In this document: positions 25,385-46,491 of the stretch, one piece after another
How the letters are laid out: the number at the start of each line of letters is the position of its first letter
Numbering within the stretch: the first letter of the stretch is position 1
Source of the DNA: Gammaproteobacteria bacterium
GTDB taxonomy: Bacteria > Pseudomonadota > Gammaproteobacteria > JAUZRS01
DNA: 64,000 nt
Direction: 5' to 3'
Assembly: GCA_030949385.1 (NCBI GenBank)
Contig: JAUZSP010000006.1
Location: 64,121 to 128,120 of the forward strand
Position numbers and translations under genes: made by a program
The notes under the pieces: generated by a model
What the model was told of the DNA's origin: nothing
The model's database searches: none
Seen by the model: only the letters and a program-made list of their open reading frames with translations

Positions 25385-25485
25385 GGGTGTCAGGTTTCTT
25401 CTATTTTTACTAGACAGGCATTTAGCCATACTCCAGCACAACACGGCATAAGCCGCGTTATTTTTAATAATTACTGGAGCTTTAA

Positions 25486-25722: not shown

Positions 25723-25730
25723 GGGGGAAG

Positions 25731-26105: not shown

Positions 26106-26130
26106 TGGTTAATAGATTACTTACCTTGCC

Positions 26131-26375
26131 TTGTCACACTGCCACGCTTAAAAAACCATTTACAAAGCACCTCATATTTATAGGGATTTTAAATAGTATT
26201 AATGTGAGGTGTGATGATTTTCAGAGTGATTTTTTTCACTTTGCTGTTAAAAGGTGGCGTGACAGGCGTGACGGCGTGACAGATCAAAAAAATATATTAA
26301 TTATCAATAGGATAGGTGTGTTTTTGAGTGTCACGCTACGGGTGTGCCACGCCGTGACAGGCGTGACAGATTGCG
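26131..26375. repeat. Left copy of an imperfect inverted repeat of about 245 bp that contains GCGTGACRG iterons and an AT-rich spacer (origin-like)
   Basis: About 90% identical to the reverse complement of 29861-30098. Contains 3 tandem 9-mers GCGTGACAG/GCGTGACGG/CGTGACAGA at 26257-26283, an AT-rich 40 bp, then an inverted TGTCACGC and two more GCGTGACAG copies. Confidence 0.8.
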
Positions 26376-26762
26376 CGATAAGGGGCTTGCTGTTCTGTGT
26401 TAGAGAAGTTTCTGCCGCTTATAAAGGGGCGCGAGCTGGAGCCGTTGCAGAAGTTTTTGCCGCTTATAAAAAGGGAAAGGGGTTGACCACCCGCACTGTG
26501 AAGCCCTATCCTTGCCGTTCCTCTGCACAATCAGAGGACGGGGTTCGCAACCCGAGCAATACCAAGCCGCACCAGCACCGGCCTCAAACCGTGCTTTTTT
26601 TGTGTAAGTCCGTTTGTTCTTTATGGCGGATTGTGTGGGGCAGCTTTCGGGCTGGCCGGTTCCCTTGGTTTCCGGTAGTGCGAACCCCATACAATCTGCC
26701 ACCCTTAAACCGCTTCGTAACGGTCGGTGGCAGCTTCCTAAATTACCAAGGAGCTTGTCATT

Positions 26763-27005
26763 ATGCTTAACTTATCCCCTCCCAATCCGTCTACCCGTTG
26801 CAGTCACGCGCCTGTTGAGGTGGTGGTTTATACGGTCTGTGTTACGTCTCTTTCTCGTTCTGGTGGGCGTACCACGCGCCCTGTATCGCGTTATTTCTCT
26901 TCCCGTATTGGCGCGTTTACCTCCTTTGATCCAGACCCCGACTACTTGGCGTGGTATCACGATCTGCTTTTGCTGGATTCCGCTTTGGCAGGGGGTGGCC
27001 TGTGA
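26763..27005 (+). CDS. Small ORF that may be translationally coupled to the primase gene
   Basis: 80-aa ORF whose TGA (27003-27005) overlaps a candidate GTG start of the primase frame (ctGTGAag). No motif recognised. Confidence 0.25.
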   Translation: MLNLSPPNPSTRCSHAPVEVVVYTVCVTSLSRSGGRTTRPVSRYFSSRIGAFTSFDPDPDYLAWYHDLLLLDSALAGGGL

Positions 27006-29173
27006 AGCAGAAAATAGACTTTCAAGCCATCAACCAATCGGCCATAAACAATGCGGTAAGTGTGCTTAACCATTATCTTCCTGATGGGACAAGCAGTGGC
27101 GGTGAGTACACGGCGTTAAACCCAACACGGGAAGACAGTAAAAAGGGCAGCTTTTCGGTTAACACCCAAAGTGGCCGGTGGTCTGACTTTGCCACAGAGG
27201 ATAAAGGTGGGGATCTGATAAGCCTGATAGCCTACCTAAACGGCACTAAACAGGGTGCAGCGGCCAAAGAGTTGTCCCAGTTTTTGGGGCTGTCAGAGGT
27301 CAACCACAGCAGCCAAAAGAAAACCGCCACGGTGGCGCAATCGAGCAAGCACCCCCCCGCTGAATGGGCACCTTGTTTGCCGGTTCCCAACGATGCACCC
27401 GCACCTCATGAGGAACATTCCCGTTTTGGTAAACCGTCAGGCCGTTGGGTCTATCGGGATGAACAAGGGGCGGTGCTGTTTTATATGTACCGTTTTGAGC
27501 AAGAGGGCAAAAAGAAGAGCTACGCGCCGTTGAGTTACGGCAATTATGGCGCGGGGTGTTTGCACTGGAAGTGGAAGGGTATTCCAGCACCCCGCCCCCT
27601 CTATCATCTTGACCAACTGGCAGCCAAGCCAAAGGCCAAGGTGGTGATCTGTGAGGGTGAAAAAGCAGCGGATGCCGCTCAATACCTTTTGCCGGATTGG
27701 GTCGCCGTTACCCCACCCAATGGGGCGCAATCACCGGATAAGGCCAATTGGTCGCCCTTAAAAGGTCGGGATGTGATGATTTGGCCAGACAATGACAAAG
27801 CCGGTGCCGCGTTTGCGGATCGGGTCAAGGCGCTGGTGGAGGGTGTCGGGGTTAAGTCGGTCGCTTTGTTGGTGGTGCCGTTTGCCTTTGGTCTCGATGG
27901 TGACGGCCTTAAGCCCGTGGCCGGTGATGGCTTTGCAGAGAAGTGGGACGCGGCGGACGCAGAGGCCGAAGGCTGGCAGCCAATGCACCTTAAACAGTTG
28001 ATCCAAAAAGCGGAGTGTGTGCGGGTGACTGCCCTCTCTGTCACGGTGAAGAGGGAAGGCAGAAAGAGACCGATTAAGGGTTCAACCTTTGGCCATAACT
28101 TCAAAGTGAAAGAGAGCGGTGTGTGGTTTCATCCACCATCAGAAGACCAACAGGACGCACCTAAGCCCATATTGATTTGTGACCGGCTGATGGTGAGTGC
28201 CAGAACACGGGACACGCACGGCGAAAGCCACGGGCGGCTGTTGGAATTTGTAGATTCAGACGGTGTACCGCACCAGTGGGCGATGCCTATGGAGATGCTG
28301 GCCGGTGATGGCTTGGAGGTCAGAAAGCGGTTGATGTCCCAAGGTTTAAGTGTGGCGCAGAGCCGCAAATCACGGGATCTGTTGGGCATGTACATACAGA
28401 CGCAACAACCGAAAGACAAGGCGCTCTGTGTGGATCGTATCGGCTGGCATGGTGGGGCATTTGTTTTGCCTGACAAGGTGCTGGGACAGAAAGAGGGTGA
28501 TCGGGTGTTGTTGCAGGCTCCAAGAAGAGAAGACCCTGTGTTCTCTCAAAAAGGCAGCCTTGCAGAGTGGCGGCAGCAGATAGCGGCGTTGTGTCTGGGC
28601 AATTCACGTTTGCTGTTTGCGGTCAGTTTGGGTTTTGCTGCCAGTGTGTTGAAGCCGTTAATGGAAGAGTCGGGCGGTTTTAATATTCGTGGTGCCAGTT
28701 CTACCGGAAAAAGTACGGCGCTACGGGTGGCGTGCAGTGTGTGGGGTGGAGCCAATCGGATGCAGCGGTGGAGAGCCACCGGTAACGGCCTTGAAGGGGT
28801 GGCCTCGATGCACAACGATACCCTTTTGTGCTTGGATGAATTGGGGCAGGTTGAACCACGGGAAGCGGGTGAAATTGCCTACATGCTGGCCAACGGTGCC
28901 GGTAAGCAGCGCAGCCGAAGGGATGGCAGCAGTGCAGCGGTAAAAGAGTGGCGGCTGTTGTTTCTTTCAGCCGGTGAGGTGGGTTTAGCGGAACAGATGC
29001 GCCAAGGCGGTAAGCGGGTCATGGCCGGTCAAGCGGTGCGAATGGTGGATATTCCAGCGGATGCGGGGCGTGGCTTGGGGTTATTTGAAGACGTTGAACG
29101 GCCACCGTTCTGGCGGCCATCTTTCAAAGGCGTTATCGGCTGCCACCCAAAAGGCTTACGGTACAGCAGGTGA
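26951..29173 (+). CDS. Phage/plasmid primase-helicase: N-terminal zinc-binding-like region, Toprim domain, P-loop (DUF927 / SF3-like) NTPase
   Basis: 740 aa. Toprim motifs (VVICEGEKAAD ... DNDKAG). Walker A GASSTGKST and Walker B LLCLDELG. The protein appears to continue in another frame at 29061-29789, implying a frameshift. Confidence 0.75.
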   Translation: MVSRSAFAGFRFGRGWPVKQKIDFQAINQSAINNAVSVLNHYLPDGTSSGGEYTALNPTREDSKKGSFSVNTQSGRWSDFATEDKGGDLISLIAYLNGTKQGAAAKELSQFLGLSEVNHSSQKKTATVAQSSKHPPAEWAPCLPVPNDAPAPHEEHSRFGKPSGRWVYRDEQGAVLFYMYRFEQEGKKKSYAPLSYGNYGAGCLHWKWKGIPAPRPLYHLDQLAAKPKAKVVICEGEKAADAAQYLLPDWVAVTPPNGAQSPDKANWSPLKGRDVMIWPDNDKAGAAFADRVKALVEGVGVKSVALLVVPFAFGLDGDGLKPVAGDGFAEKWDAADAEAEGWQPMHLKQLIQKAECVRVTALSVTVKREGRKRPIKGSTFGHNFKVKESGVWFHPPSEDQQDAPKPILICDRLMVSARTRDTHGESHGRLLEFVDSDGVPHQWAMPMEMLAGDGLEVRKRLMSQGLSVAQSRKSRDLLGMYIQTQQPKDKALCVDRIGWHGGAFVLPDKVLGQKEGDRVLLQAPRREDPVFSQKGSLAEWRQQIAALCLGNSRLLFAVSLGFAASVLKPLMEESGGFNIRGASSTGKSTALRVACSVWGGANRMQRWRATGNGLEGVASMHNDTLLCLDELGQVEPREAGEIAYMLANGAGKQRSRRDGSSAAVKEWRLLFLSAGEVGLAEQMRQGGKRVMAGQAVRMVDIPADAGRGLGLFEDVERPPFWRPSFKGVIGCHPKGLRYSR

Positions 29174-29789
29174 GGCGTTTATTAATGGCTTGTTGCCCTT
29201 GGGTGATCTGGTGCCCGTTGTTGAGGGGTTACAGGCGGACTTCCTTAAGGGTCTGCTTCCAGATGAAGCCGATGGTCAGGTTCACCGTGTGGCGGGTCGT
29301 TTTGCGTTGGTGGCGGCGGCGGGTGAGCTGGCCACTCGATTTAAGATCACCGGCTGGCCAACAGGTGAGGCCAGTAAGGGAGTAAAGAGCTGCTTTAACG
29401 ATTGGTTAAAAGAGCGCGGCGGTCACGGAGCACAGGAAGAGAGAGAGGCTTTAAAACAGGTTCGCCACTTTATCGAGGTTCACGGGGAGTCGCGGTTCTC
29501 TCCTTGGGTGCAAGATGAGCGATACCGCAGCACCAGCAACCGAGCGGGTTTCCGTAAGCACTTGGAGGGTGGCGGGGTGGAGTATTACATTTTGAGAGAA
29601 AGCTTTAAGCGTGACGTGTGTGACGGCTTGGATTGGCGTTTTGTTGTCGAAGTCTTGAAAAAACACGAATGGCTTGTTCTGGATTCAAAAGGGGGAGCGA
29701 CACGCCCCGAACGCTTGCCAGAAGGAGGCCGTCAGCGGTGTTACCGTTTAAAAATTCCTGAGCTGGTGGAGATGCGCGCAGTTTCATAG
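29061..29789 (+). pseudogene. Frameshifted C-terminal continuation of the primase-helicase (DUF927 C-terminal region)
   Basis: The frame is open from 29061 and overlaps the end of the 740-aa ORF. The sequence ..AGRFALVAAAGELATRFKITGWPTGEA.. resembles the conserved C-terminal part of DUF927 primase-helicases. The frame switch lies near 29100-29125. Confidence 0.55.
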
Positions 29790-29860
29790 GGTTATGTTGG
29801 ATTGGTTCGACGGGACTTAAAAGCGGCTATTTGGCCGTTTTTTTGTGCCCATGACAAAAT

Positions 29861-30098
29861 CTGTCACGCCTGTCACGCCGTGACACACCCGTAGCGTGAC
29901 AGCCAAAATAGCATATAACATATTGATATTAAATAAGTTATTTGGATCTGTCACGCCGTCACGCCTGTCACGACACCTTTTAGCAGCAAAGTGAAAAAAC
30001 CAATCTGAAAATCCTCACACCTCACATAAATACTATTTAAAATCCCTGTAAATATGAGATGCTTTGAAAATGGTTTTTTATGTGTGGCAGTGTGACAA
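29861..30098. repeat. Right, inverted copy of the roughly 245-bp iteron-containing repeat
   Basis: Reverse complement aligns with 26131-26375 at about 90% identity. TGTCACGCC iterons at 29861-29902 and 29948-29972 flank an AT-rich spacer. Confidence 0.8.
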
Positions 30099-30202
30099 AT
30101 AAACTGCTTTAAGGTACTAGGTAGGGAATTTGGTTTGCGGGTAATTCGAACCCCGCTTAGACGTTATTTACCACCTTATTCAAAATAAACGGGTTCGGGG
30201 CA

Positions 30203-30451
30203 TTAGCCTACCTTGCGGATTTCTTCACGAATAACGCGGCGTAGAACAGCCTCTAATGGTTCTTTGCCCTCTACGCTTTGGATGTGTTGTTGTAGGGCTG
30301 CATTAATCAGTGATTGATAGTTACCACCACCGGCCACTTGATCCCGAAACCATTGCACCACGTCACTGTCAAGACGGATGGTGATTCGTTCCTTATTGCT
30401 TTGGATCACAGCGCCCCGTTGGGCGTTATTGAAGTCGTAATGTTCTCTCAT
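30203..30451 (-). CDS. brnA: BrnA antitoxin (RHH/DUF4415) of a type II toxin-antitoxin pair
   Basis: 82 aa. ..ERITIRLDSDVVQWF..GGNYQSLINAAL.. matches the BrnA family. It starts 4 bp after the brnT stop. Confidence 0.7.
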   Translation of the reverse strand: MREHYDFNNAQRGAVIQSNKERITIRLDSDVVQWFRDQVAGGGNYQSLINAALQQHIQSVEGKEPLEAVLRRVIREEIRKVG

Positions 30452-30454
30452 GGC

Positions 30455-30727
30455 TTAGCCCTCGTACTGTTTGCGTTCTTGCCTATTGGCCTTTCTGGCA
30501 GAGATGATGCGGATAACATCCCCTATTTTGTGCAGGTTTACCACCAGCAAAACACGCCCTTGAAAATCCATGCCAAGCGTTAAGAGGCGCGCCTCTTGGT
30601 GGTTGTGATCTGGGTCGGTTTGGGTCAGTGCCATATCATCGTAAAAGACTCCCACCGCATCGGCAAAATCCACACCGTGCTTATTTAGGTTGGTGTGGCG
30701 TTTGTTTTCATCCCATTCAAAGTTCAT
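30455..30727 (-). CDS. brnT: BrnT ribonuclease toxin (DUF497)
   Basis: 90 aa. MNFEWDENKRHTNLNKHGVDFADAVGVFYDD matches the canonical BrnT N-terminus. Confidence 0.75.
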   Translation of the reverse strand: MNFEWDENKRHTNLNKHGVDFADAVGVFYDDMALTQTDPDHNHQEARLLTLGMDFQGRVLLVVNLHKIGDVIRIISARKANRQERKQYEG

Positions 30728-30920
30728 GGGTTGAGTGTATGCCGGTTGTGCATACAGTCAAGTATCCTTTAGATGGGGTGGTGTTACTGCCCTGTGGGGC
30801 ACTCATGGGACACTAGACCAGCAAAAACAGGGGTAAACGTGAACAAGTGGAAACAATGGGTTGCCATTAACTTATTGATTTAATTCTTTTTTTATTGTTC
30901 TTGGTTGTTCTGGATTATTC

Positions 30921-30973
30921 GTTGTTCGAAACTTTTAATTAGGTGGTCGAAGGTTCGAATCCTTCACGGCCCA
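30921..30973 (+). repeat. attR: second copy of the 53-bp tRNA-Lys 3'-half repeat
   Basis: ACTTTTAATTAGGTGGTCGAAGGTTCGAATCCTTCACGGCCCACCATATTTTT; 52/53 identical to 23318-23370. Confidence 0.85.
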
Positions 30974-31071
30974 CCATATTTTTAAACGCTGTTCTTAGCG
31001 TTGATTCTTTCATTTTATTTTGCCTTAATAGGCTACCTTTCCGGTACGATCATTGACTCACTTTTTTATCT

Positions 31072-31782
31072 GTGGAGTTATCATGTCTCGTCCAAAAAAA
31101 TCTTCCTAGTTTACCATCGGCAGAAGAGGCTTTATCTGGCAGAGATCAAGCCCTCATTGTTGATGATGCGCATTTTGTGCATGGCCACACTTTAACAGCA
31201 CCTTTTCCTGAGCAGATGCAGCTGGCGATGTTTGGTTTGGGCTGTTTTTGGGGGGCTGAAAAACGCTTTTGGCAAGAGCTCGGTGTGTTCAGTACCGCTG
31301 TGGGTTATGCCGCTGGCCACACTAAAAATCCGACCTATCATGAGGTGTGCAGTGGAGCTACGGCGCACAACGAAGTGGTGCAGGTGGTGTTTGATCCAGA
31401 ACAGCTCTCTTACCAGCGTCTGCTGGAGCTGTTTTGGACGGGGCATAATCCCACTCAAGGTGATCGCCAAGGTAACGATGTGGGTAGCCAATATCGTTCT
31501 GGAATTTACTGTTTTAATGCTGATCAGCAGGCTTTAGCGGAAGCTTCAAAACAGCGTTATCAGGATGCCTTGTCTTCACAGGGGTTGGCTGAAATTACCA
31601 CTGAAATCATTCCAGCACCGCTTTTTTATTATGCAGAGTCCTATCATCAGCAGTACTTGGCAAAAAATCCGCAGGGTTATTGTGGTTTGGGGGGGGTGTG
31701 GCGTCGATTTTCCGCAGTAATACCGTTCAATACTTCGGACAGTTTTAGAGAGAAAAAGATAGGAACCACAGGCGGATTCTGA
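31072..31782 (+). CDS. msrA: Peptide methionine sulfoxide reductase MsrA, with its C-terminus altered by an IS insertion
   Basis: FGLGCFWGAE active-site motif and alignment to E. coli MsrA throughout. The last roughly 19 codons are read from IS sequence starting at 31727. Confidence 0.85.
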   Translation: MELSCLVQKNLPSLPSAEEALSGRDQALIVDDAHFVHGHTLTAPFPEQMQLAMFGLGCFWGAEKRFWQELGVFSTAVGYAAGHTKNPTYHEVCSGATAHNEVVQVVFDPEQLSYQRLLELFWTGHNPTQGDRQGNDVGSQYRSGIYCFNADQQALAEASKQRYQDALSSQGLAEITTEIIPAPLFYYAESYHQQYLAKNPQGYCGLGGVWRRFSAVIPFNTSDSFREKKIGTTGGF

Positions 31783-33046
31783 GAAAATAGAGTTCTCAAA
31801 AAACGACAATCAAAGAAGGCCGCCCGTGGAATCCATAGTAGAATCGGTTTTACTCTCCATGTCCAGTGTTAAAAAACCACAACGTCTTTTTCTCTCAGCT
31901 CTGTTTTCCGCATTGATGGTTTTTCAAGGGAAAGCCACTTTTCGTAATTTGAGTCGTTACAGTTCGTTGCATGAAAAACGTCTGTCGCGTTGGTTTCGAC
32001 GTTCATTTGATTTTGCACAATTCAACAGACGCCTACTTCAAAAAGGGCTGCCACAAAAGCACGATCAAATTGCCGCCATTGATGCCAGCTTTATGAAAAA
32101 AAGTGGTCAGAAAACAGCAGGGTTGGGTTGGTTTTACAACGGCGCTTTGGGGCAAGCCATGGTGGGGTTGGAGTTGTCGTTGGTTTGCCGAATTGATCTT
32201 CAAAGTCGAACCGCTTACGCGCTGGAGGCTCGCCAAACGTTGGACTCGGAACAGAAAGAGGGTGAGAGCCGAGTGGACTGCTACGCGAAACAGGTTTGTG
32301 ACCTTGCCTGTGATCTTCAAGCGCAAGGCATTCGCTACCTTACCGCAGACGCCTACTACAGCAAGGTGAAGTTTGTCGATGCGGTCTGTTCAGATGACTT
32401 ACACCTGATTGGAAAGCTGCGTTCAGATGCCAACCTAAGCTGGTATTTTGAGGGCGAGTACGGTGGCAAAGGACGTCCTAAAACGTACGATGGTAAAGTC
32501 AATTTCCAAACGGAGCTGTCCCGTTTTGATGCGTGTGGCGTAATGGATAAGGGGGTATCGATTTACAGCGCCGTGGTTCACTCGTGTTGTTTCAAACGGA
32601 AAATCCGTGTGGTGCTGCTGCGATGGGAGCAGAAGACAAAAGTCCGTTCGGCTCTGCTGTTTTCTACGGATTCGGAGTTGGCTCCAGAAAAGATTGTCGA
32701 ATATTACACCGCTCGTTTTCAGATTGAATTTTTGTTTCGTGAAGCTAAGCAACATACGGGTTTAATGGATTGCCAAGCGCGTTGCCCAGAGGCCATTCAA
32801 ACTCATATTAATGCCTCGTTCACCGCACTGAATTTATTGAAGCTGGAAGACCGTAAGGACAAGAGCAACCCTGAGCCTTCGGTGATTTCGATTGCCTCGT
32901 GGCGACGTAAGAAATTCAATCAATATTTGATGAAAATACTTTTTGACAAGTTAGGTTTGGAGAGATCTTGTCAAAAAGTCGAGGCGGTTTACCATGAGCT
33001 GAGTGAGTATGGGGCTATTCAGGTTTAAAACTGTCCGAAGTATTGA
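31727..33046 (+). mobile_element. IS701-like insertion sequence (IS4 superfamily), 1320 bp
   Basis: 21-bp perfect terminal inverted repeats TCAATACTTCGGACAGTTTTA (31727-31747 and 33026-33046). A 4-bp direct duplication CCGT at 31723-31726 and 33047-33050. A single transposase ORF. Confidence 0.75.
31826..33028 (+). CDS. DDE transposase (IS701/IS4-like)
   Basis: 400 aa with a DDE_Tnp_1-like organisation (..AIDASFMKKSG.. ... DAYY ... EFLFREAKQHTG). It lies between the inverted repeats. Confidence 0.65.
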   Translation: MESIVESVLLSMSSVKKPQRLFLSALFSALMVFQGKATFRNLSRYSSLHEKRLSRWFRRSFDFAQFNRRLLQKGLPQKHDQIAAIDASFMKKSGQKTAGLGWFYNGALGQAMVGLELSLVCRIDLQSRTAYALEARQTLDSEQKEGESRVDCYAKQVCDLACDLQAQGIRYLTADAYYSKVKFVDAVCSDDLHLIGKLRSDANLSWYFEGEYGGKGRPKTYDGKVNFQTELSRFDACGVMDKGVSIYSAVVHSCCFKRKIRVVLLRWEQKTKVRSALLFSTDSELAPEKIVEYYTARFQIEFLFREAKQHTGLMDCQARCPEAIQTHINASFTALNLLKLEDRKDKSNPEPSVISIASWRRKKFNQYLMKILFDKLGLERSCQKVEAVYHELSEYGAIQV

Positions 33047-33298
33047 CCGTTGATAATCTGATAAATGTGACAAACCATCTGGTACGACTTATTTTTATGC
33101 TTGGATGAAGGGCGCTCTCTGGGCTAGTCTTTATGCTTTAGAAGTTTTAAGGCCGTCGTAAGGTAGAGTGGTTTACTCTACTTAATTCAGTTTTTTGCAA
33201 CTTCTATCCAGTGTGGCGTTAGGATAAACCTCTGTAGGTTTGTGCTGTAATAGATTGAATCATCTATATAAATAGAAATTCAGTTTTGGATAGATTGC

Positions 33299-34078
33299 AT
33301 GGAGTGCGTTTTAATGATTGATGAGGCTTTGGCGTTTCGTCTGGGTCAGGAAAGCCCCGGTTTTTACGGCAAAATTCCCGTTAGGGGTGATTTTGTGTCG
33401 CGCCGCTTGGCGCAGCATTTTGTTGAACCTTGGGATCATTGGTTGCAAGAGTCTTTGCTCTCCAGTCAGGAGCAGTTGGCGGATGACTGGTTGGATGTCT
33501 ACCTGACCAGCCCTGTGTGGCGTTTTGTGATGACCAAAGGGGTCTGTGGTTCTCTGCCGTGGGCGGGAGTGGTGATGCCGAGTGTGGATCGAATGGGGCG
33601 TTATTTTCCTTTCACCCTTGCGACTCCGTTGGCCGAAGGGGTGAATCCGTTTCGAATGATGCAGTCGGGAGGGGCGTGGTACGCACAAGCAGAAACCTTG
33701 GCGCTTTCCAGCCTCCGCGAAGGCTTTGAACTGGAAGAGTTTGACCAGCAATTGAAACGTTTACGAGTGCCGAAAAGTGCCGCTAAAGAGACGGTACACA
33801 ACGGCATAATGGGGGTTTCGTCCGCTTGGCATATCTCATTAGCGGCACCGTCGAGTTTGGCGGGTGCTTGTTCTGAGTTGGCAAATCAGGCTCTGGAAGA
33901 GCTTTATTTTGGCTACAGCCTCTGGTGGAGCCACGGTTCCGAGCAGGTGGAACCTTCTTTTTTAGTATGTCAGGGATTACCCCCGACAACAGGCTTTGCA
34001 GCCATGTTGGGAGGAGACTGGGAAAATGCAGATTGGCAGAAGAGAAGCGTTACCTCTGCCCACGGTGATGGATTTTGA
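33299..34078 (+). CDS. tagF: TagF (DUF2094) type VI secretion-associated protein
   Basis: 259 aa. GFYGKIPVRGDFVSRRLAQHFVEPWDHWLQESL is close to the P. aeruginosa TagF N-terminus (WYGKLPSLGDFVSRRLP..FV.PWD.WLQ). ..SVDRMGRYFPF.. is also conserved. Confidence 0.7.
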   Translation: MECVLMIDEALAFRLGQESPGFYGKIPVRGDFVSRRLAQHFVEPWDHWLQESLLSSQEQLADDWLDVYLTSPVWRFVMTKGVCGSLPWAGVVMPSVDRMGRYFPFTLATPLAEGVNPFRMMQSGGAWYAQAETLALSSLREGFELEEFDQQLKRLRVPKSAAKETVHNGIMGVSSAWHISLAAPSSLAGACSELANQALEELYFGYSLWWSHGSEQVEPSFLVCQGLPPTTGFAAMLGGDWENADWQKRSVTSAHGDGF

Positions 34079-34859
34079 CGGTGGTGAATTAGGTTTGTAC
34101 TGGAACTCAGCCGCTATCACCCACATGGGAAAGGTTAGAAATAATAATGAGGACGCTTATTTGGAGCGTCCAGAAGTGGGTTTGTGGGTGGTTGCTGATG
34201 GCATGGGTGGTCACGCCTACGGTGAATTGGCCAGTCAATGGATTGTGGAGTCACTGCAAAGCCTAGAACCGCCGTTGGGATTCGGTGCTTATGTCCGTGA
34301 GGTAAAACGTGCCCTGTTGGGAGTAAATGAGCGTCTGTTGGCAGAGGCGCAGCGCCGAGGTAAAACAACCATTGGCAGTACGGTGGTTGTGTTGCTGGCG
34401 TGGCGTCAGTATTGTGTTTATCTGTGGGCCGGAGACAGCCGAGCGTATTTGTTGCGCAACAAACGTTTGCGTTCTTTGACTTGGGATCACGGTCCACTGG
34501 AAGAGTTTGTTGCTCGCGGTTTGGTGAGTCGTGAAGAGTCCGACAGTTATGTGGATTCCAATGCCATCACTCGAGCGGTGGGAGCGTCTAAGCGGTTGGA
34601 GTTGGATTGCCATATTCAGGCCGTTTGCCGAGGCGATGTTTTTTTACTCTGTAGTGACGGTCTCTATCGAGAGATTGAAAACGCGGAGATTGAAGCGTTG
34701 TTGAATCAAGGTTCACCCCAAGAGAGTGCGGAGGCTTTGGTGACCTTGGCACTCTCTCGTGGCGCGCGAGATAATGTGACGGTCGTGGTGGCTGCTGCTG
34801 GCAGTGGCCGGGGGTTGCAGACCGTAGAGCGCTCTAACGTGATTGATTTTGCGATGTGA
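34068..34859 (+). CDS. pppA: PP2C-family Ser/Thr protein phosphatase (PppA-like)
   Basis: The ATG at 34068 overlaps the tagF stop (ATGGATTTTGA). PP2C motifs: ..VADGMGGHAYGELAS.., ..GSTVVVLLA.., ..AGDSRAYL.., ..LLCSDGL... Confidence 0.75.
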   Translation: MDFDGGELGLYWNSAAITHMGKVRNNNEDAYLERPEVGLWVVADGMGGHAYGELASQWIVESLQSLEPPLGFGAYVREVKRALLGVNERLLAEAQRRGKTTIGSTVVVLLAWRQYCVYLWAGDSRAYLLRNKRLRSLTWDHGPLEEFVARGLVSREESDSYVDSNAITRAVGASKRLELDCHIQAVCRGDVFLLCSDGLYREIENAEIEALLNQGSPQESAEALVTLALSRGARDNVTVVVAAAGSGRGLQTVERSNVIDFAM

Positions 34860-34886
34860 TTAATCGCTGATTGATGAGCAAAAAAA

Positions 34887-34917
34887 GCCGAGATCGAATG
34901 ATCTCGGCTTTTTTTTT
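34887..34917. terminator. Strong bidirectional Rho-independent terminator
   Basis: AAAAAAA-GCCGAGATC-gaat-GATCTCGGC-TTTTTTTTT. A perfect 9-bp stem flanked by A7 and T9. Confidence 0.85.
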
Positions 34918-35017
34918 GGCTGAACATCTCTGATGTTCTCTTAGCTGCCGTGGCGGTTTGCTGGCGGGAAATCTGGTTGTATACTGCTGCGCTCCCCCTT
35001 CTCTTGGAAACGGATTC

Positions 35018-37208
35018 ATGCAACAACTGCAACAGATCGAAGCCATCGAAAAACGTCTTTGGAAAGCAGCCGATACCTTGCGCTCCAACTCCGAACTGGC
35101 GAGCAACGAATATTTTATGCCGGTGATGGGGTTGGTGTTTTTGCGTCACGCTTACAGCCGTTTTCTTGCGGTCAAGGCTGAGATTGAGAAAACCCTGCCC
35201 AGTCGGGGTGGAAAAACTCGTGCATTAAGCAAAGATGATTTTGCTGGTCGGGGGGGCGATTTTTCTCCGTGAAGAGGCGCAGTTTGATTATTTGGTGGCG
35301 CTGAGTGATGAAGTTGATTGTACGCAAGCGGTCATTGCGGCGATGAACTCCATTGAGGAGGATTACACGGGGCTAAAGAAGCAGTTACCAAAAGAGGAGT
35401 ATCAAGGGATCTCCAGTGAGGTGGTGCGGCAGTTGTTGCGCAGTCTCAACCCAGAAGAGTTAAAGCAGGCCGATGGGGATATTTTTGGCCGTATCTATGA
35501 GTACTTCTTGACTCAGTTTGCTGACCAGGGGGCGCACGATGGCGGTGAGTTTTTTACTCCGATCTCTTTGGTGCAGATGATCGTTAATGTGATCGAGCCT
35601 CATAAGGGCAAAATTTTAGACCCTGCCTGTGGTTCTGGTGGCATGTTTGTGCAGAGTGCACATTTTGTCGATCAGCAGAAAAAGGAGTCTCATGATGCCT
35701 TGACCTTTTACGGTCATGAGAAAAACCCCACCACAACCCGTTTGGCGAAGATGAATCTACGGGTGCATGGTCTGGAAGGCGAGGTTGCTGGGGGCAGTGA
35801 GGCGATCACCTACTACAATGACCCGCATGATTTGGTGGGCGATGTTGATTTTGTGATGGCCAACCCGCCTTTCAATGTGGATGAGGTGGATGCGAGCAAA
35901 ATTGAAACGGATGCACGCCTGCCGTTCGGTTTGGCAGGAGTAAATAAAGGCGGCAAGGTTTCTAACGGTAATTACCTTTGGATTTCCTATTTTTACAGCT
36001 ACCTGAATGAGACAGGCCGTGCGGGGTTTGTGATGTCGTCGCAATCGTCCAGTGCTGGAGGGGCTGAGGCAAAGGTGCGTCAAGCGTTGATTGAGACCGG
36101 CCATGTGGATCTGATGATTGACATCCGTTCTAACTTTTTCTACACCCGTTCGGTGCCCTGTCAGCTCTGGTTTTTGAATAAGGGCAAGCCTGAGGCGCAT
36201 AAAGATAAGGTGTTGATGATTGATGCGCGGCAGGTTTACCGTCAAGTGACGCGCAAGATTTACGACTTTAGCCCTGAGCAGTTGGCCAATTTAAACAGCA
36301 TTGTTTGGCTTTATCGCGGTGAGTCTGGGCGGTTTATTGAGTTGGTGCAGAGTCACATTCAGAAGGCGCTGGATCATGCGTGGCTTGCCTTTGCTCTGGA
36401 GTATGAAGAGGAGGTGGTTGTTGAGAAAGGCGGTTCGAAAGAGATCAAGATCGTTGAATATAATCCAATTTTTGTCTCGGTTGAGTTGTTGCAGAAGATT
36501 GAGAAGGCCATTACGCCTTTCTATAAGCAGCAAACCGCCGCGCTACAAGAGGACTTAAAAGCGTTTTCGGACAAAGTGGTTCTGCTGAGTGCGGAGAGTA
36601 AAACCTTTGAGGCGCTGGTGGATCAGGTCACGAAACAGTGGGGAGCTGGCACCTTTAAGACGGCGAAGTCGTTAAACAAGCTGATCGCTGATGGGGGTAA
36701 GGTGGCGCAGTTGGCGGAGCGCAGTCGTGATTTTATGGCTGAGTTGGAGTCGGTTTGTAAAGCGTCGAACGGTCTGTTTGAGAACGCTGAGAAGGTGTTA
36801 AAGGCGAAGAAGGTCAAGAAAAGTAAGCTTTGGGATCGGGTGGCCTTGCTCAGTGGCAAGGAGAGTTTAAAAAAACGCTTGGAGAGGATGCGAGGGGATG
36901 CGGTGGAGCAGTTGAAGCAGGTGAGCTATTTTCATCAGCAGGCGTTGTGGTTGTTGAGCCGTTTCCCTGAGGCGAAGTTGGTGGATGTGGCAGGGCTGGT
37001 GAGGTTGGTGGATCAAACGGAGCTGGCGGCGAATGATTGGAGCCTGACCCCGGGGCGTTATGTGGGGGTGGCGGCTGAGGAAGAGGAAGAAGGATTTGAT
37101 TTTGCCGTGAGCCTGCGGGAGATTCACCGTGAGTTGGAGGGGTTAAATAAAGAAGCGGTAACGCTGGCTGAAAAAATAGCCCAGAACTTTAAGGGGCTGG
37201 GGGTATGA
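35018..37208 (+). pseudogene. hsdM: Type I restriction-modification DNA methyltransferase subunit HsdM, frameshifted in a G7 tract (possible phase-variable tract or an assembly error)
   Basis: N-terminus MQQLQQIEAIEKRLWKAADTLR (HsdM N-terminal domain) in one frame up to ..KDDFAGRGG. The main body (..LDPACGSGGMF.. and the NPPF motif) is in the +1 frame from 35235. The switch falls exactly in GGGGGGG at 35250-35256. Confidence 0.8.
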
Positions 37209-38392
37209 GCTTTTTTTTAACCACAATAAAGGATGTGTCGCTTGGTGTATATGATGGTCCGCACGCAACGCCTAAAGTGTCAACCTCTGGTCATGTTTTT
37301 TTAGGGATTAAGAATGTGACATCTCAAGGCAGGCTTGATTTGTCTAAAATAAAATATGTATCGAAAGAAGAATACTCTAAGTGGATAATAAGGGTAAAGC
37401 CTCAATGTGGAGATGTGGTATTTTCTTATGAAGCTACCTTGCATAGATATGCAATTATTCCTAAAGGGTTTGAAGGGTGTTTGGGGCGTCGCATGGGACT
37501 GATAAGGCCAGATCCAAAAAAAATAAATTCACGTTTTCTTCATTACTATTTTCTATCTCCACAATGGCAAAAATATGCAGATACAAAGGTGATTGTAGGA
37601 GCAACAGTGAGTAGGTTTTCTATAAAAGATTTTCCTGATTTTTTGCTTAATATACCCTCGCTAGAGATACAGAAAGTAATTTCTACAGTGTTGTCTCAAT
37701 ACGACGATCTTATAGAAAACAACCGTCGCCGCATTCAATTGCTAGAAGAGTCCGCCCGTTTGCTCTACAAAGAGTGGTTTGTGCATCTGCGCTTTCCTGG
37801 TCATGAGCAGGTTAAAGTTGTTGATGGTGTGCCGGAGGGGTGGGTTAAGAAAAATCTTTTTGAAGTAAGTAGGGTGACATACGGTTTTTCATTTAAGTCA
37901 ACCCTGTTTTCTGGTGATGCTATTGGGCTTCCTGTTGTTAGGATAAGAAATATTCCCTCCCGTGTATCTAAGGTATTTACCATTGAAGAAGCCCCTGAAG
38001 AAAAATTATTAGAAAATGGAGATTTTTTAATTGGTATGGATGGTGATTTCCATATGAATTATTGGTGTGGTGGAAAAGCATGGTTGAACCAACGGGTTGT
38101 TAGAGTTCTTGGGGCTAATGGTGTGAGTACGGGGTTTGTAAAGCAGGCAATTGAAAAGCCTATTTTTGATTTCAATAGAGTTATTACTGGAACCACAGTG
38201 CGACATCTTGGGGCAAAGCACCTAAAAATGATTGATTTTTTTATTCCTGATGATGATGTGTTGAATAAGGCGAATGACTATTTTGAAGATGTTCGTATTC
38301 AAGTTGTTTGTCTATTTCAGAAAATTAAAAAACTTGAGCAAGCCCGAGATATTTTATTGCCTCGTTTGATGAGCGGAGAGCTGGTGGTATGA
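37205..38392 (+). CDS. hsdS: Type I R-M specificity subunit HsdS
   Basis: 395 aa with two target-recognition-domain halves and conserved central and C-terminal coiled repeats (..LLEESARLLYKEWFVHLRFPGHE.., ..LEQARDILLPRLMSGEL). AT-rich like typical hsdS. The start overlaps the hsdM stop. Confidence 0.8.
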   Translation: MSFFLTTIKDVSLGVYDGPHATPKVSTSGHVFLGIKNVTSQGRLDLSKIKYVSKEEYSKWIIRVKPQCGDVVFSYEATLHRYAIIPKGFEGCLGRRMGLIRPDPKKINSRFLHYYFLSPQWQKYADTKVIVGATVSRFSIKDFPDFLLNIPSLEIQKVISTVLSQYDDLIENNRRRIQLLEESARLLYKEWFVHLRFPGHEQVKVVDGVPEGWVKKNLFEVSRVTYGFSFKSTLFSGDAIGLPVVRIRNIPSRVSKVFTIEEAPEEKLLENGDFLIGMDGDFHMNYWCGGKAWLNQRVVRVLGANGVSTGFVKQAIEKPIFDFNRVITGTTVRHLGAKHLKMIDFFIPDDDVLNKANDYFEDVRIQVVCLFQKIKKLEQARDILLPRLMSGELVV

Positions 38393-41300
38393 GTGGCATG
38401 ACCGAAGATACGCTGGTGCAACAGACCACCGCCGACTACCTGCGTGACGCACTGGCGTGGGACGAATCCCTCTACGCCATGCAGGAAACACTCGGCACAG
38501 ACGGCACCCTCGGACGCGAAAGCGAAAAAGAGATCATCCTCAGCCGCTACCTCAGCCAAACCCTCATCCGACTCAACCCAAACCTGCCCGACGAAGCCTA
38601 CCAAAACGCCCTGCAACAGATCATCAGCGTCAACAGCAGCCAAAGCCTCGCCGCGATCAACCAAGAAAAAGACCGACTCTACAAACAGGGCGTAGCGGTC
38701 AACTACCGCGACAAAAAAGGCCAACGCCAGCAGAAAACCCTCCGCATCTTCGACTTTGAACAAGCCGACAACAACCACTTTTTAATCGTGCGCGAACTCT
38801 GGATCAAAGGCGACGTGTACCGCCGCCGCGCCGATTTGGTGGGCTTCGTCAACGGCATCCCGCTGATTTTTATGGAAGTGAAAAACCTGCACCGAAGCGT
38901 TAAAGCCGCCTACGAAGAGAACCTCTCAGACTACCGAGACAAAGACGTTATCCCACATCTTTTTCACCACAACGCCGTGGTGATCTTAGGCAACGGAATC
39001 GAGGCTAAAATCGGCTCCCACTCCTCAAAGTACGAACACTTCAGCGAATGGAAACGGCTGGACGAAGAGGAGAGCGGAGCGGTGGCAATGGAGACCCTAC
39101 TCAAAGGGGTCTGTGGCAAAAGAAACTTTCTCGACCTGTTTGAAAACTACATCATCTTTGACGACTCCAGCGGCAAAACAGTCAAAATCATCGCCCGCAA
39201 CCACCAATTTCTCGGCGTGAACCGTGCCCTTGACGCAGTGAAAAAGCGTCGGTCACTGCAAGGCAAGCTCGGGGTCTTTTGGCACACCCAAGGTTCGGGG
39301 AAATCCTACTCGATCCTCTTCTTTGCCAAAAAAATCCGCCGTAAACTGGGCGGAAACTACACCTTTTTGCTGCTCACCGACCGCGACGATCTCGACAATC
39401 AGCTCTACAAAACCTTTGCCGGAGCGGGGCTGGTGAATCACGACCGCGACCCCTGCCGCGCCAACAGCGGCAAACACCTCGATGAACTGCTTGGTCAGCA
39501 GAAAGCCTTTATCTTTACCCTGATTCAGAAATTCAGCACCGCAGAGATGCGCGGCTCGCAACGGGACGACATCATCGTCATTACCGATGAAGCGCACCGC
39601 ACCCAGTACGGCACTCTGGCGCTGAATCTGCGCAACGCCCTGCCTAACGCCTGTTTCATCGGCTTTACCGGCACCCCGCTGTTGAAAGAGGATCAGATCA
39701 CCCGCCAAGTGTTTGGCGATTACATCTCCACCTACGACTTTCAACGAGCCGTGGAAGATCAAGCCACCGTGCCACTCTTCTACGATGCACGGGGTGAGGC
39801 GCTACGTCTTGAGGGAAAGGGGGGCGATGAGAACGGTGGTTCGGTGGCGGAACCGAATGGGTTGAACAAAAAAATCAGCGCAAAACTGGCTGAGATGGAT
39901 GTGGAGGATCTGGACGTTCAGCGGCGCTTAGAGCGCGAATTAAAGCGCGCTTATCACATCGTCACCGCCAGCAGCCGTCTGGAGCAGATCGCCGATGATT
40001 TTGTCGAGCATTACAGCGCAGGCTGGCAAAACGGCAAAGCAATGCTGGTCTGCATTGATAAAGTGACCTGTGTGCGGATGTACGATTTGATCAAGGAGCG
40101 TTGGCAGCAGCATCAGGTGGCACTGAGCAAGCGACTTACCAGCGAGACAGCGGATGAGCAGGAGATGATCTTTCGTGAGCGCCAACTGACGTGGATGCAA
40201 GAGACCCAGATGGCGGTGGTGGTGAGCGAGGAGCAGGGCGAGGTAGAGAAATTTCGCCATTGGGATCTGGACATCCTTCCCCATCGTAAATTGATTAAAG
40301 AGGGCTTTCAGGAGGGCAAGGGGCGGTTAAAGCTGGAAGAGGCGTTCAAGCGTGAAGAGCACCCTTTCCGTGTGGCGATTGTCTGCGCCATGTGGTTGAC
40401 GGGGTTTGATGTGCCGAGTTTATCAACTCTTTATCTGGATAAACCGCTGAAAGCCCACTCCTTGATGCAGGCCATCGCCCGTGCCAACCGAGTCGCTGAG
40501 GGTAAAAATAACGGTTTGATTGTGGATTACTGCGGCATTTTGAAGAATTTACGCCAAGCCTTGGCGGACTTTGGGGGTGCTGCGAATGGCAGTTCTGTCC
40601 CTGACCCGGTGCGACCCAACAAAGAACTGCTGGCAACGCTGGCCGAGTCCATTGCAGCGGTCAAAACCTTTTTGAATCAGCGGGGCTTTGAGCTAACAAA
40701 GATCACCGAGGATGTTGGTTTTGCGCGTAATCAAGCCATTATGGAGGCCAAAGAGGCGGTCAATGAAAATAATCGGAGCAGAAAAACCTATGAAGTGATG
40801 GCGCGTGAGGTGGTGAAAAAATTCAAAGCCTGCATCACGCTGCGCCCCGAAGTGAATGCGTATCGGCTGGATCGGGATGCCATTCACATCATCTACAAAT
40901 CGCTGCAACGGGATCGAGAGACGGCAGACATCAGCCAGATTATGAGGGCGCTGCACAAGCTGGTGGATGAGTCGGTGTTGGTGGAAGAGCGCACCGTGCG
41001 CGAAGCGCGGGTCTACGATATGAGCAAAATTGATTTTGAGCGTTTGCGAGCGGAGTTTGCTCAGCAGGCGCAGAAAAAAACCGTGGTGCTTAATTTGAGT
41101 GATGTCTTGGCGAAACAGCTGAATAAATTGGTGCAGCAGAATCCGTTGCGAACCGATTTTCAAACGCATTTTGAAGCGGTGGTGGCGCGTTACAACGATG
41201 AAAAAGAGCATCTCGCCATTGAGCAGACCTTTGATGAGTTGTTGAATTTTATGCAGGAGTTGGGGCAGGAGGAGGCGCGGGCGCTGCGCGAGGGCTTGGA

Positions 41301-41611
41301 TCAGGAGAGTTTGGCCTTGTTTGATCTGCTGAACAAACCGGAGTTAAGTAAAAAAAGAGATCAAGACCATCAAGCGGGTGGCAACGGAGCTGTTAAAAGA
41401 TGTGAAAAAGGAGCTGGTCACGATTCAGCACTGGCAAGAGAAAGGGCGCGCTCGGGCGGCGATCAAACAGGGTATTTATGACCACCTGTACGATGACAAA
41501 ACGGGCTTGCCAGAGAGCTACGAAGTGGAGGAGATTGGTTTGTTAGCCGATGAACTGTTCAGTCATATTTATCGTGTGTACCCCACTTTACCCTCACCGG
41601 TTTATGGTTAA
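38389..41611 (+). pseudogene. hsdR: Type I R-M endonuclease subunit HsdR, frameshifted at an A7 tract near the C-terminus
   Basis: The 1030-aa ORF carries SF2 helicase motifs (..TQGSGKS.., DEAH in ITDEAHRTQYG, ..QAIARANR..). The final roughly 75 aa (..VATELLKDVKKELVTIQHWQEK..) are in the -1 frame as ORF 41378-41611. Removing one A from AAAAAAA at 41350-41356 restores ..LSKKEIKTIKRVATELL... Confidence 0.8.
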
Positions 41612-41618
41612 GCTGAGG

Positions 41619-42420: not shown

Positions 42421-42539
42421 CGGCTTGGGTCTTTATTTGGGCTAAAAAATGGTCACAGAGGATAGCAGAGAACGGGTGTTTTGAGTATGAAAATATGCTG
42501 ACCTGCGTACGGTTTTGATTCTTTTAAGGAGAAGTTGAT

Positions 42540-46458: not shown

Positions 46459-46491
46459 AAACGGCACTTACTTCCGAAAAGGAGCTTTGTT

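What the first reader, a model, noticed from the sequence alone, without database searches (positions are those of the whole stretch)
33299..34859. Orphan tagF-pppA pair with no type VI secretion genes, placed directly upstream of a type I R-M locus
The two genes overlap by 11 bp (ATGGATTTTGA). TagF (DUF2094) and PppA normally sit inside type VI secretion clusters as post-translational regulators. Here the pair is isolated. It lies between an IS element and hsdM, separated from hsdM by a strong bidirectional terminator, in what looks like an accessory region between msrA and suhB. No FHA, PpkA or T6SS core genes occur within 30 kb on either side in this window. The only kinase-like gene is a degenerate one 22 kb away. 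The pair may regulate an unseen T6SS elsewhere, or it may be a repurposed phospho-signalling module in a defence-island context.
Basis: partly seen in the sequence, partly recalled or inferred. Interest (0 to 1): 0.7.

Follow-up and report, generated by a model that had tools for sequence, protein, structure and literature searches.

The report
Stand-alone TagF–PppA secretion-brake gene pair
Two genes that normally end type VI secretion gene clusters and keep that machine switched off sit alone here between housekeeping genes, intact and strongly conserved in a small group of deep-sea bacteria, while the restriction-modification system beside them is a strain-specific insertion, not a partner.

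Summary
Window 33314-34078 encodes a full-length TagF (Pfam TagF_N E=7.6e-49; TIGR03373 above cut-off). Overlapping it, 34026/34068-34859 encodes a PP2C phosphatase whose best solved relative is the T6SS phosphatase PppA of P. aeruginosa (E=1.4e-55). No T6SS, FHA or PpkA gene lies in the 64 kb.

The link to the type I R-M locus is incidental. A sister MAG (96% DNA identity) has msrA-tagF-pppA-suhB with neither the IS nor hsdMSR. Other relatives carry different DNA at the same pppA|suhB junction.

The pair itself is fixed next to msrA in seven related contigs (TagF 91-100% identical) and is under strong purifying selection (dN/dS 0.05 for tagF, 0.085 for pppA). It keeps every residue shown experimentally to bind Fha, and all PP2C metal-binding motifs.

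In 76 of 80 representative genomes with a related TagF, tssM lies upstream of tagF in the fetched locus (directly in 74, 1.3-3 kb away in two). The nearest outgroups are also T6SS-embedded.

Best reading: a functional TagF/PppA brake detached from its ancestral cluster, probably acting in trans on an Fha/T6SS encoded elsewhere. I could not scan the rest of the genome, so a T6SS-independent role remains open.

The parts
33314..34078 (+). tagF (254 aa; an in-frame ATG at 33299 would give 259 aa)
   Evidence: TagF_N E=7.6e-49; TIGR03373; profile match to PA0076 structures 2QNU/6IZ8 at E~3e-65. All 35 invariant family columns are kept. Fha-binding residues G19 K20, D26 F27, D41/W43, S90 D92 R96 and P99 are present (compared with PMC5995506). 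dN/dS is 0.011 against L001 and 0.053 against L006.
34026..34859 (+). pppA/tagG-type PP2C Ser/Thr phosphatase (277 aa from ATG 34026, or 263 aa from ATG 34068); overlaps tagF by 53 or 11 nt
   Evidence: PP2C and PP2C_2 above their cut-offs. Best solved relative is P. aeruginosa PppA 6JKV at E=1.4e-55. Motifs ED, DGMGGH, GDSR, SDGL and DN are visible in the translation. dN/dS is 0.087-0.10 against L001 and 0.085 against L006.
33047..33313 (+). msrA-tagF intergenic region: conserved upstream blocks (likely the pair's own promoter and 5' UTR) and a GGAG ribosome-binding site
   Evidence: The seven-sequence alignment shows long invariant blocks in the last ~130 nt before the start codon and in a 50-nt block at 33047-33096. 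A sigma-70-like match GTGACA-17-TATTTT lies at 33067-33095. No Rfam family matches.
34878..34917 (.). bidirectional intrinsic terminator (A7, 9-bp GC-rich stem, T9) after pppA; it lies inside the DNA that is absent from the sister MAG
   Evidence: Fold dG -27.1 kcal/mol, z=-5.69, 0 of 200 shuffles as stable. The sister contig has a different hairpin plus T-run in its 45-bp spacer.
34858..41615 (+). CONTEXT, not part of the module: 6.76-kb type I R-M block. hsdM 35019-37208 has its frame broken at a G7 run at 35250. hsdS is 37205-38392. hsdR 38389-41611 has its frame broken at an A7 run at 41350.
   Evidence: Absent from L001 (blastn breakpoints). Pfam and PADLOC assign MTase_I, Specificity_I and REase_I. 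Frame breaks are shown.
31727..33046 (+). CONTEXT, not part of the module: IS701-family insertion sequence between msrA and the tagF upstream region
   Evidence: Transposase matches IS701 models. The terminal inverted repeat CAATACTTCGGACAGTTTT is matched without mismatch by its reverse complement at the other end, as read from the arm sequences (the tool reports the extended 41-nt arms as 78% complementary). The element is flanked by ACCGTT, is absent at this site in L001, and has several further copies in the same MAG.
31072..31782 (+). CONTEXT: msrA, the conserved left neighbour of the pair in all seven related contigs
   Evidence: PMSR domain on the syntenic genes; alignment to L001.

Best explanation
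This is a genuine, functional TagF + PppA (TagG) pair, the post-translational brake of type VI secretion. It was detached from the 3' end of an fha-tssJ-tssK-tssL-tssM-tagF-pppA operon in the ancestor of a small clade of marine, vent-associated Gammaproteobacteria. It is now kept as a two-gene, translationally coupled unit with its own conserved upstream region, next to msrA.

Inferred mechanism, by homology with P. aeruginosa and A. tumefaciens: TagF uses its conserved GK / DxW / SxDxxxR-P loop surface to sequester an FHA-domain scaffold (Fha/TagH), and PppA removes the activating phosphothreonine from the same pathway. Together they keep a T6SS, encoded elsewhere in the genome, from assembling.

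The type I R-M locus, the IS element and the tRNA-Lys island around the pair are independent mobile insertions and play no part.

Shown: gene identity, intactness, conservation, purifying selection, T6SS-embedded ancestry, and the incidental nature of the R-M adjacency. Inferred: Fha as the target, and the existence of a T6SS elsewhere.
For: Identity.

Every residue group that Lin et al. 2018 (PMC5995506) showed to be required for Fha binding or repression is present. PP2C catalytic motifs are intact.

Purifying selection: tagF differs from L001 by 23 synonymous and 1 non-synonymous change, and omega is 0.053 at dS 0.70 against L006. For pppA omega is 0.085 at dS 1.12. There are no indels in the pair, although neighbouring genes in this window carry several.

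The same msrA-tagF-pppA unit occurs in seven contigs covering three TagF sequence types that are 91-93% identical to one another.

Of 80 representative genomes with related TagF, 76 have tssM upstream of tagF in the fetched locus. The nearest outgroups, P0002 and P0003, are tssK-tssL-tssM-tagF-pppA(-ppkA). In a neighbour-joining tree the window's TagF nests among sequences from the same search, of which all six checked for context are T6SS-embedded, and its branch length is ordinary. This argues that the ancestral function is retained.

The R-M adjacency is not conserved.
Against: No Fha, PpkA or T6SS core gene was found within 33 kb upstream or 29 kb downstream, nor within +/-10 kb in any related contig.

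A TssM search of the protein database returned no hit on a contig whose length matches the contigs I know from the window MAG or its relatives. That list saturated at 47-49% identity, so the negative is weak.

In every other genome sampled, the regulators stay attached to tssM. A T6SS that has exported only these two genes to a distant site would therefore be unusual.
Confidence: 0.5

Rival explanations
1. T6SS-independent repurposing. The lineage lost its T6SS, or never had the rest of it, and keeps TagF-PppA because the pair now controls another phosphothreonine/FHA-dependent process. Phosphorylation would come from a kinase encoded elsewhere.
For: Complete absence of T6SS, Fha and PpkA genes from all sequence available around the pair in seven contigs. 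Strong constraint shows that the genes do something. Three clade-specific substitutions sit at positions that are otherwise at least 90% conserved: P33A, L73M and V94M, the last inside the SxDR(V/M)GR loop. They are read from the alignment and the L006 translation, and could reflect a changed partner. No TssM from these MAGs appeared among the best 120 hits.
Against: All experimentally defined Fha-binding residues and all family-invariant residues are unchanged, and the branch is not accelerated, which is not what a change of partner usually looks like. No alternative partner is encoded next to the pair. Absence of a T6SS from the genome was not shown.
Confidence: 0.33
2. Defence-island module. 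TagF-PppA is functionally coupled to the adjacent type I restriction-modification system, for example through phospho-regulation of HsdM/HsdR or an abortive-infection switch.
For: Physical adjacency in this window. A relative (L006/L086) keeps an hsdR 3' remnant at the same junction, so an R-M system has sat there more than once or for a long time. The PP2C gives a weak hit to a candidate PADLOC family, PDC-M21C, at E=9e-9.
Against: The sister MAG keeps the pair under purifying selection with no R-M at all. Other relatives have unrelated genes there. A strong bidirectional terminator separates pppA from hsdM. TagF matches no PADLOC model. In this window hsdM and hsdR both have interrupted reading frames. 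None of the 76 T6SS-embedded loci suggests any link to R-M.
Confidence: 0.03
3. Decaying remnant. The two genes are leftovers of a deleted T6SS cluster with no current function.
For: They are the last two genes of the ancestral operon, and nothing upstream of them survives.
Against: Both ORFs are intact in seven contigs. dN/dS is 0.05-0.09 at dS 0.7-1.1. The upstream region and ribosome-binding sites are conserved. TagF (93% amino-acid identity to L006) is better conserved than the neighbouring msrA (78% by tblastn).
Confidence: 0.02

Closest known systems
P. aeruginosa H1-T6SS TagF (PA0076) and PppA (PA0075)
   Same: Separate TagF and PP2C proteins. The TagF profile matches the PA0076 structures at E~3e-65 and PppA matches 6JKV at E=1.4e-55. 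The Fha1-binding residues (G8 K9, S79 D81 R85, P88 in PA0076) have exact counterparts here.
   Different: In P. aeruginosa the genes lie inside the H1 cluster with ppkA, fha1, tssM and tagQRST. Here none of these lies within 30 kb.
fha-tssJ-tssK-tssL-tssM-tagF-pppA operons of Chromatiaceae, Sedimenticolaceae, Ca. Thiodiazotropha and Ca. Thiosymbion
   Same: Closest sequence relatives outside the clade (40-55% TagF identity, 39-52% PppA identity), with the same gene order tagF then pppA and tight or overlapping junctions.
   Different: In those genomes tagF starts at or within a few bases of the tssM stop, and ppkA is often nearby. In the window's clade the five upstream T6SS genes are missing and msrA is the left neighbour.
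A. tumefaciens TagF-PppA fusion protein (Atu4330-type)
   Same: The same two activities are coupled: fused in Agrobacterium, overlapping reading frames here. TagF residues G22K23, D44W46 and S93D95R99 are conserved.
   Different: Here they are two separate polypeptides, and they are not in the imp operon.
Generic bacterial Stp1/PstP PP2C phosphatases paired with Hanks kinases
   Same: PP2C fold and motifs. The NCBIfam Stp1/IreP model matches at E=1.2e-55.
   Different: The score of 188.6 is below that model's 230-bit cut-off. The protein is much closer to T6SS PppA than to Stp1/PstP. No active kinase gene is adjacent.

Membership tests
TagF (T6SS accessory protein; Pfam PF09867 / TIGR03373) | Scores above the curated cut-offs of the family HMMs | tested here: met
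   PF09867 165.6 bits against 27; TIGR03373 158 bits against 41.2.
TagF (T6SS accessory protein; Pfam PF09867 / TIGR03373) | Full-length similarity to the solved TagF (PA0076), including the C-terminal SLWW..GS..P region | tested here: met
   Profile positions 7-230 align to 2QNU/6IZ8 at E~3e-65. All 35 invariant columns are kept.
TagF (T6SS accessory protein; Pfam PF09867 / TIGR03373) | Residues required for Fha binding and repression (GK, DF, DxW, SxDxxxR, P) | tested here: met
   G19 K20, D26 F27, D41-x-W43, S90-x-D92-xxx-R96 and P99 in the window protein, compared with PMC5995506.
TagF (T6SS accessory protein; Pfam PF09867 / TIGR03373) | Encoded within a T6SS cluster, typically directly after tssM | tested here: not met
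   No TssM, L, K, J or Fha hit in the window or the sister contigs. 76 of the 80 comparison loci do have tssM upstream of tagF.
TagF (T6SS accessory protein; Pfam PF09867 / TIGR03373) | Binds Fha/TagH and represses T6SS assembly | not testable with these tools
   Needs an interaction or secretion assay. It is not even known whether the genome encodes an Fha.
PppA/TagG (T6SS PP2C phosphatase) | PP2C domain with intact metal-binding motifs | tested here: met
   PF00481 and PF13672 above their cut-offs. ED, DGMGGH, GDSR, SDGL and DN motifs align with 6JKV.
PppA/TagG (T6SS PP2C phosphatase) | Closer to T6SS PppA than to housekeeping PP2Cs | tested here: met
   6JKV at E=1.4e-55, against ~1e-28 for Stp1, PstP and PphA. 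Syntenic with the pppA of T6SS clusters at 39-52% identity.
PppA/TagG (T6SS PP2C phosphatase) | Cognate kinase PpkA and substrate Fha encoded alongside | tested here: not met
   None in the window. The only Pkinase-domain gene (10023-11261) lacks the catalytic Lys and the DFG Asp.
Stp1/IreP PP2C (NCBIfam NF033484 equivalog) | Score above the equivalog cut-off | tested here: not met
   188.6 bits against a cut-off of 230.
Anti-phage defence system component (PADLOC families; conserved linkage to a defence system) | Match to a defence-protein model and recurrent adjacency to the defence genes | tested here: not met
   TagF has no PADLOC hit, and the PP2C has only a weak generic hit. hsdMSR is absent next to the pair in L001 and L085 and is replaced by other genes in L006, L086, L088 and L089.
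Type I restriction-modification system (the neighbouring locus) | HsdM, HsdS and HsdR all present with intact reading frames | tested here: inconclusive
   All three are recognised. However, hsdM is split at a G7 run (35250) and hsdR at an A7 run (41350). These could be consensus errors in a long-read MAG or real inactivation.

The most novel reading that the evidence does not exclude
A vent-associated gammaproteobacterial clade has no type VI secretion system, yet maintains the T6SS brake TagF-PppA as a core, strongly selected two-gene module. That would mean TagF and PppA have a cellular target outside T6SS, for example another FHA-domain or phosphothreonine-regulated machine. It would be the first indication that TagF has a T6SS-independent function.
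Probability: 0.3. Interest if true: 0.65.

Novelty: new variant of a known kind. Interest (0 to 1): 0.4.

Why it matters
In the papers I read, TagF and PppA are treated only as accessories of the T6SS, acting on Fha/TagH or possibly TssM, and they are described as being encoded in the cluster. A lineage in which the pair has been cut loose, fixed at a housekeeping locus, and kept under selection as strong as that on essential genes can go one of two ways. It may be a natural example of T6SS control in trans from a distant locus, which matters for genome-mining tools that infer regulation from the content of the cluster. Or, if those genomes lack a T6SS, it would be the first lead to a T6SS-independent role for TagF. 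The analysis also removes a tempting but wrong idea: a phospho-signalling module wired to a restriction system.

Tried and rejected
1. Exact look-ups of the 259-aa TagF and of HsdS in the contig index found nothing. The window's own MAG is in the protein collection (MDQ70750xx, a 448,595-bp contig) but not in the contig index, so I could not walk along it.

2. A paper search for the accessions and locus tag (GCA_030950195, JAUZRS, Q9O24) found nothing. A search for the isolate codes 'AMOR20' and '12ROV5' returned papers on Arctic Mid-Ocean Ridge vent iron mats, none of which I read. The link to those samples is therefore inferred from the isolate name only.

3. I tried to detect a T6SS elsewhere in the genome by searching the protein database with TssM of the closest T6SS-embedded relative. 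The best 120 hits saturate at 47-49% identity. None sits on a contig whose length matches those I know from the window MAG, the sister MAG or L006. This is inconclusive rather than negative.

5. Rfam on 32900-35100 gave only sub-threshold Thr_leader matches, which are simply the terminator hairpin. No known riboswitch or leader lies upstream of tagF.

6. PADLOC gave nothing for TagF.

7. I considered the window's kinase (10023-11261) as the cognate PpkA and rejected it. It has no VWA domain, it has lost catalytic residues, it lies 22 kb away, and it is only 30% identical to PpkA over the kinase core.

8. I rejected the remnant/pseudogene reading on dN/dS.
Full report
**What is there.**
The flagged interval holds two intact, overlapping genes on the + strand.

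- The first (33299/33314-34078) matches Pfam TagF_N over the whole model (E=7.6e-49, 165.6 bits, cut-off 27) and NCBIfam TIGR03373 'type VI secretion system-associated protein TagF' (158 bits, cut-off 41.2).
- A profile built from it and 34 homologues matches the solved P. aeruginosa TagF (PA0076; 2QNU, 6IZ8) at E~3e-65 across positions 7-230. The C-terminal half, which Pfam does not model, is therefore also canonical.
- The second gene (to 34859) is a PP2C phosphatase (PF00481 and PF13672 above their cut-offs). Its best solved relative by far is P. aeruginosa PppA (6JKV, E=1.4e-55), against ~1e-28 for Stp1, PstP and PphA. It falls below the Stp1/IreP equivalog cut-off (188.6 against 230 bits).

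GenBank already names these proteins: MDQ7075041.1 'type VI secretion system-associated protein TagF', 254 aa, and MDQ7075042.1 'protein phosphatase 2C domain-containing protein', 277 aa.

The likely tagF start is ATG 33314, with GGAG 9 nt upstream.

**Surroundings in the window.**
I ran Pfam scans on 40 ORFs: 35 of at least 150 aa and 5 of the ORFs lying in gaps. I also ran tblastn with Fha, TssJ, TssK, TssL, TssM and PpkA from a Thiocapsa T6SS cluster. The stretch 41.6-50.8 kb was assigned from precomputed Pfam calls on the syntenic sister contig, and hisS from its source name. glgA, which is split here, and rlmN were assigned only by synteny or a partial sister-contig match. None of this finds a T6SS or FHA gene in the 64 kb.

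The rest is housekeeping: moaB/moeA, pgi, glgA, queC, the suhB-trmJ-cysE-iscRSUA-hscBA-fdx operon region, hisS, bamB and der. Mobile DNA is interspersed.

The only Pkinase-domain gene (10023-11261, minus strand) has lost the VAIK lysine (AIRV), reads HGD instead of HRD, and reads SGF instead of DFG.

The hairpin after pppA is a real bidirectional terminator (dG -27.1 kcal/mol, z=-5.7).

**The neighbours are insertions; the pair is the constant.**
The window comes from a 448,595-bp contig of a MAG labelled only 'Gammaproteobacteria bacterium'.

A sister MAG, JAUZRS010000159.1 (isolate 12ROV5_HD12-AMOR20_M1286), aligns at 94-96% DNA identity in three blocks. The breaks fall exactly at the IS and at the R-M locus:
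- L001 3-4311 = window 27412-31724
- L001 4298-6120 = window 33034-34857
- L001 6166-15341 = window 41616-50794

In the sister the order is brnT-msrA-tagF-pppA-suhB, and the spacer between pppA and suhB is only 45 bp and holds a different terminator.

The IS701-family element (31727-33046) has 19-nt terminal inverted repeats with no mismatch on inspection. It is flanked by ACCGTT and has several further copies in the same MAG.

A more distant set of contigs has msrA-tagF-pppA followed by an AraC regulator, a GH9 glycosidase and a ~110-140-aa remnant of the hsdR 3' end before suhB. These are L006/L087 = GCA_964615985.1, plus IMG contigs L086, L088 and L089, with TagF 93% identical to the window's.

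Another contig, L085 (TagF 91% identical), has an oxidoreductase and a REC-kinase/Hpt/HisKA cluster in that position.

On the left, the window and its sister also carry a 7.6-kb integrative element bounded by a 53-bp repeat of the tRNA-Lys 3' half. The other relatives lack it.

So the pppA|suhB junction and the tRNA-Lys site are hot spots for insertion, while msrA-tagF-pppA is fixed. This removes the basis for a functional link with the R-M system. TagF also matches no PADLOC model, and in this window hsdM and hsdR both have interrupted frames.

**The pair is functional.**
- Against the sister MAG, tagF differs by 23 synonymous and 1 non-synonymous substitution (omega 0.011). pppA differs by 20 synonymous and 6-7 non-synonymous (omega ~0.09-0.10).
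- Against L006, omega is 0.053 for tagF (dS 0.70) and 0.085 for pppA (dS 1.12).
- There is no indel in the pair, although flanking genes of this window carry several.
- TagF (93% amino-acid identity to L006) is better conserved than its neighbour msrA (78%).
- The ~130 nt before the start codon, including the GGAG, is nearly invariant across the seven contigs.

**Mechanistic residues.**
Lin et al. 2018 (PMC5995506) showed that G-K, D-x-W and S-x-D-xxx-R of TagF are needed for Fha binding in A. tumefaciens, that G-K and S-D-R are also needed in P. aeruginosa, and that D-F is needed for repression. The window protein has G19 K20, D26 F27, D41-H-W43, S90-V-D92-RMG-R96 and P99, and it keeps all 35 columns that are invariant in the 35-sequence alignment.

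PppA keeps the ED, DGMGGH, GDSR, SDGL and DN motifs.

Three clade-specific changes occur at positions that are otherwise at least 90% conserved: P33A, L73M and V94M (and for L006). All three are conservative substitutions.

**Origin.**
tblastn classification gives:
- 76 loci have tssM upstream of tagF in the fetched locus. In 74 it is directly upstream, usually as fha-tssJ-tssK-tssL-tssM-tagF-pppA. In two Thiosymbion loci it is 1.3-3 kb away.
- The exceptions are the sister MAG (L005), L006, a 2.1-kb contig too short to judge (L031), and L036.
- L036 is a 3.7-kb Thiodictyon contig in which a divergently oriented ORF, not tssM, precedes tagF-pppA. It is a possible second, independent orphan.

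Annotated examples from Thiocapsa rosea and Thiocystis violascens confirm the canonical operon, and in Thiocapsa rosea PpkA-like kinase genes lie nearby. The two closest sequences outside the clade (P0002, P0003; 51% identity) are also tssK-tssL-tssM-tagF-pppA(-ppkA).

In a neighbour-joining tree the window's TagF nests among sequences from the same search. All six of those checked for context are T6SS-embedded, and the window's branch length is unremarkable. The orphan pair therefore descends from a T6SS-embedded pair and has not evolved faster since.

**What it most likely does.**
- Shown: a bona fide, expressed-looking, selected TagF/PppA pair of T6SS ancestry, unrelated to the adjacent R-M system.
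- Inferred: it still works as in P. aeruginosa, A. tumefaciens and Serratia. There TagF sequesters unphosphorylated Fha/TagH (or blocks the membrane complex), and PppA reverses threonine phosphorylation. Here it would act in trans on a T6SS encoded elsewhere in the genome.

I put this at about 0.5. The unchanged binding surface and the normal evolutionary rate point to an unchanged partner.

The main rival, at about 0.33, is that the lineage has no T6SS and the pair has acquired another FHA/phosphothreonine target.

I could not decide between the two:
- The window MAG is not in the contig index.
- A TssM protein search saturated at 47-49% identity without showing any hit on a contig whose length matches these MAGs.

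**Novelty and score.**
The gene identities are already annotated and the biochemistry is known. What is new is the arrangement: a detached regulator pair, conserved across a clade, at a housekeeping locus. That is a new variant of a known kind.

Interest is moderate (0.4). It would rise to about 0.65 if whole-genome scans show that these bacteria have no T6SS.

Noticed in passing
window 23288-30983: A 7.6-kb integrative element sits in tRNA-Lys(ttt). The tRNA is at 23288-23363, and a 53-bp direct repeat of its 3' half lies at 23318-23370 and 30931-30983 (98% identical). The element carries a tyrosine integrase (23732-24799), a DUF927 primase-like gene broken into several ORFs (26105-29789), and the brnT/brnA toxin-antitoxin pair (30203-30727, minus strand). 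It is present in the sister MAG and absent from the other relatives.
   Followed up: partly
window 35250, 41350, 42203, 31094, 31689, 29093, 16494-18014: Many genes have interrupted reading frames relative to the sister MAG or to full-length homologues: hsdM (G7 run), hsdR (A7 run), suhB (a single extra C, not in a homopolymer), msrA (A7 and G8 runs), DUF927, and glgA (split in two). tagF-pppA has none. I could not decide whether these are long-read consensus errors or real pseudogenes.
   Followed up: partly
window 31727-33046: IS701-family insertion sequence whose 19-nt terminal inverted repeats (CAATACTTCGGACAGTTTT) match without mismatch on inspection, flanked by ACCGTT. Transposase copies at least 90% identical occur on four large contigs of the same MAG (448,595, 416,856, 196,640 and 103,145 bp), which suggests an active IS expansion.
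   Followed up: partly
L006 5736-6164; L086 12420-12746: A short ORF next to suhB is homologous to the last ~60-100 residues of the window's HsdR (window 41217-41615 aligns at 82%). A type I R-M system therefore once occupied the pppA|suhB junction in that lineage too, and was then largely replaced by an AraC regulator and a GH9 glycoside hydrolase.
   Followed up: partly
window 10023-11261 (minus strand): Membrane-anchored pseudokinase. It has a Pkinase domain (E=6e-23) but the catalytic Lys is Arg, HRD reads HGD and DFG reads SGF. It has a long low-complexity N-terminus and a C-terminal transmembrane helix. It is conserved at the same position in L085 and L088. It gives generic hits to the PADLOC kinase families PD-T4-6 and MkoA.
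   Followed up: partly
L085 11596-14960: In one relative (IMG 3300023313, an 82.5-kb contig) the genes directly downstream of pppA are a MocA-type oxidoreductase, a receiver-domain/Ser-Thr-kinase fusion, an Hpt protein and a HisKA-receiver hybrid. An active Hanks-type kinase thus sits next to the orphan phosphatase in that genome only.
   Followed up: no
L036 1089-2577: A 3.7-kb Thiodictyon MAG contig carries tagF-pppA preceded by a divergently oriented ORF instead of tssM. Other Thiodictyon genomes have the T6SS-embedded arrangement. This is a possible second, independent orphan pair or extra copy, though the contig is short and could be mis-assembled.
   Followed up: partly
window 12630-14558 (minus strand) and 11851-12417 (minus strand): A 642-aa glutamine-rich, probably coiled-coil protein has no Pfam or PADLOC match. 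A neighbouring 188-aa protein has no Pfam match and only a marginal PADLOC hit (PDC-S06, E=5.5e-4). The larger one has no other member in its 90% cluster.
   Followed up: no
L028 8691-10010; L029 6928-9998: In two Candidatus Thiosymbion genomes tssM and tagF are separated by 1.3-3 kb of other DNA. The tssM-tagF junction can therefore be broken by insertions in the clade that is sister to the window's TagF.
   Followed up: no
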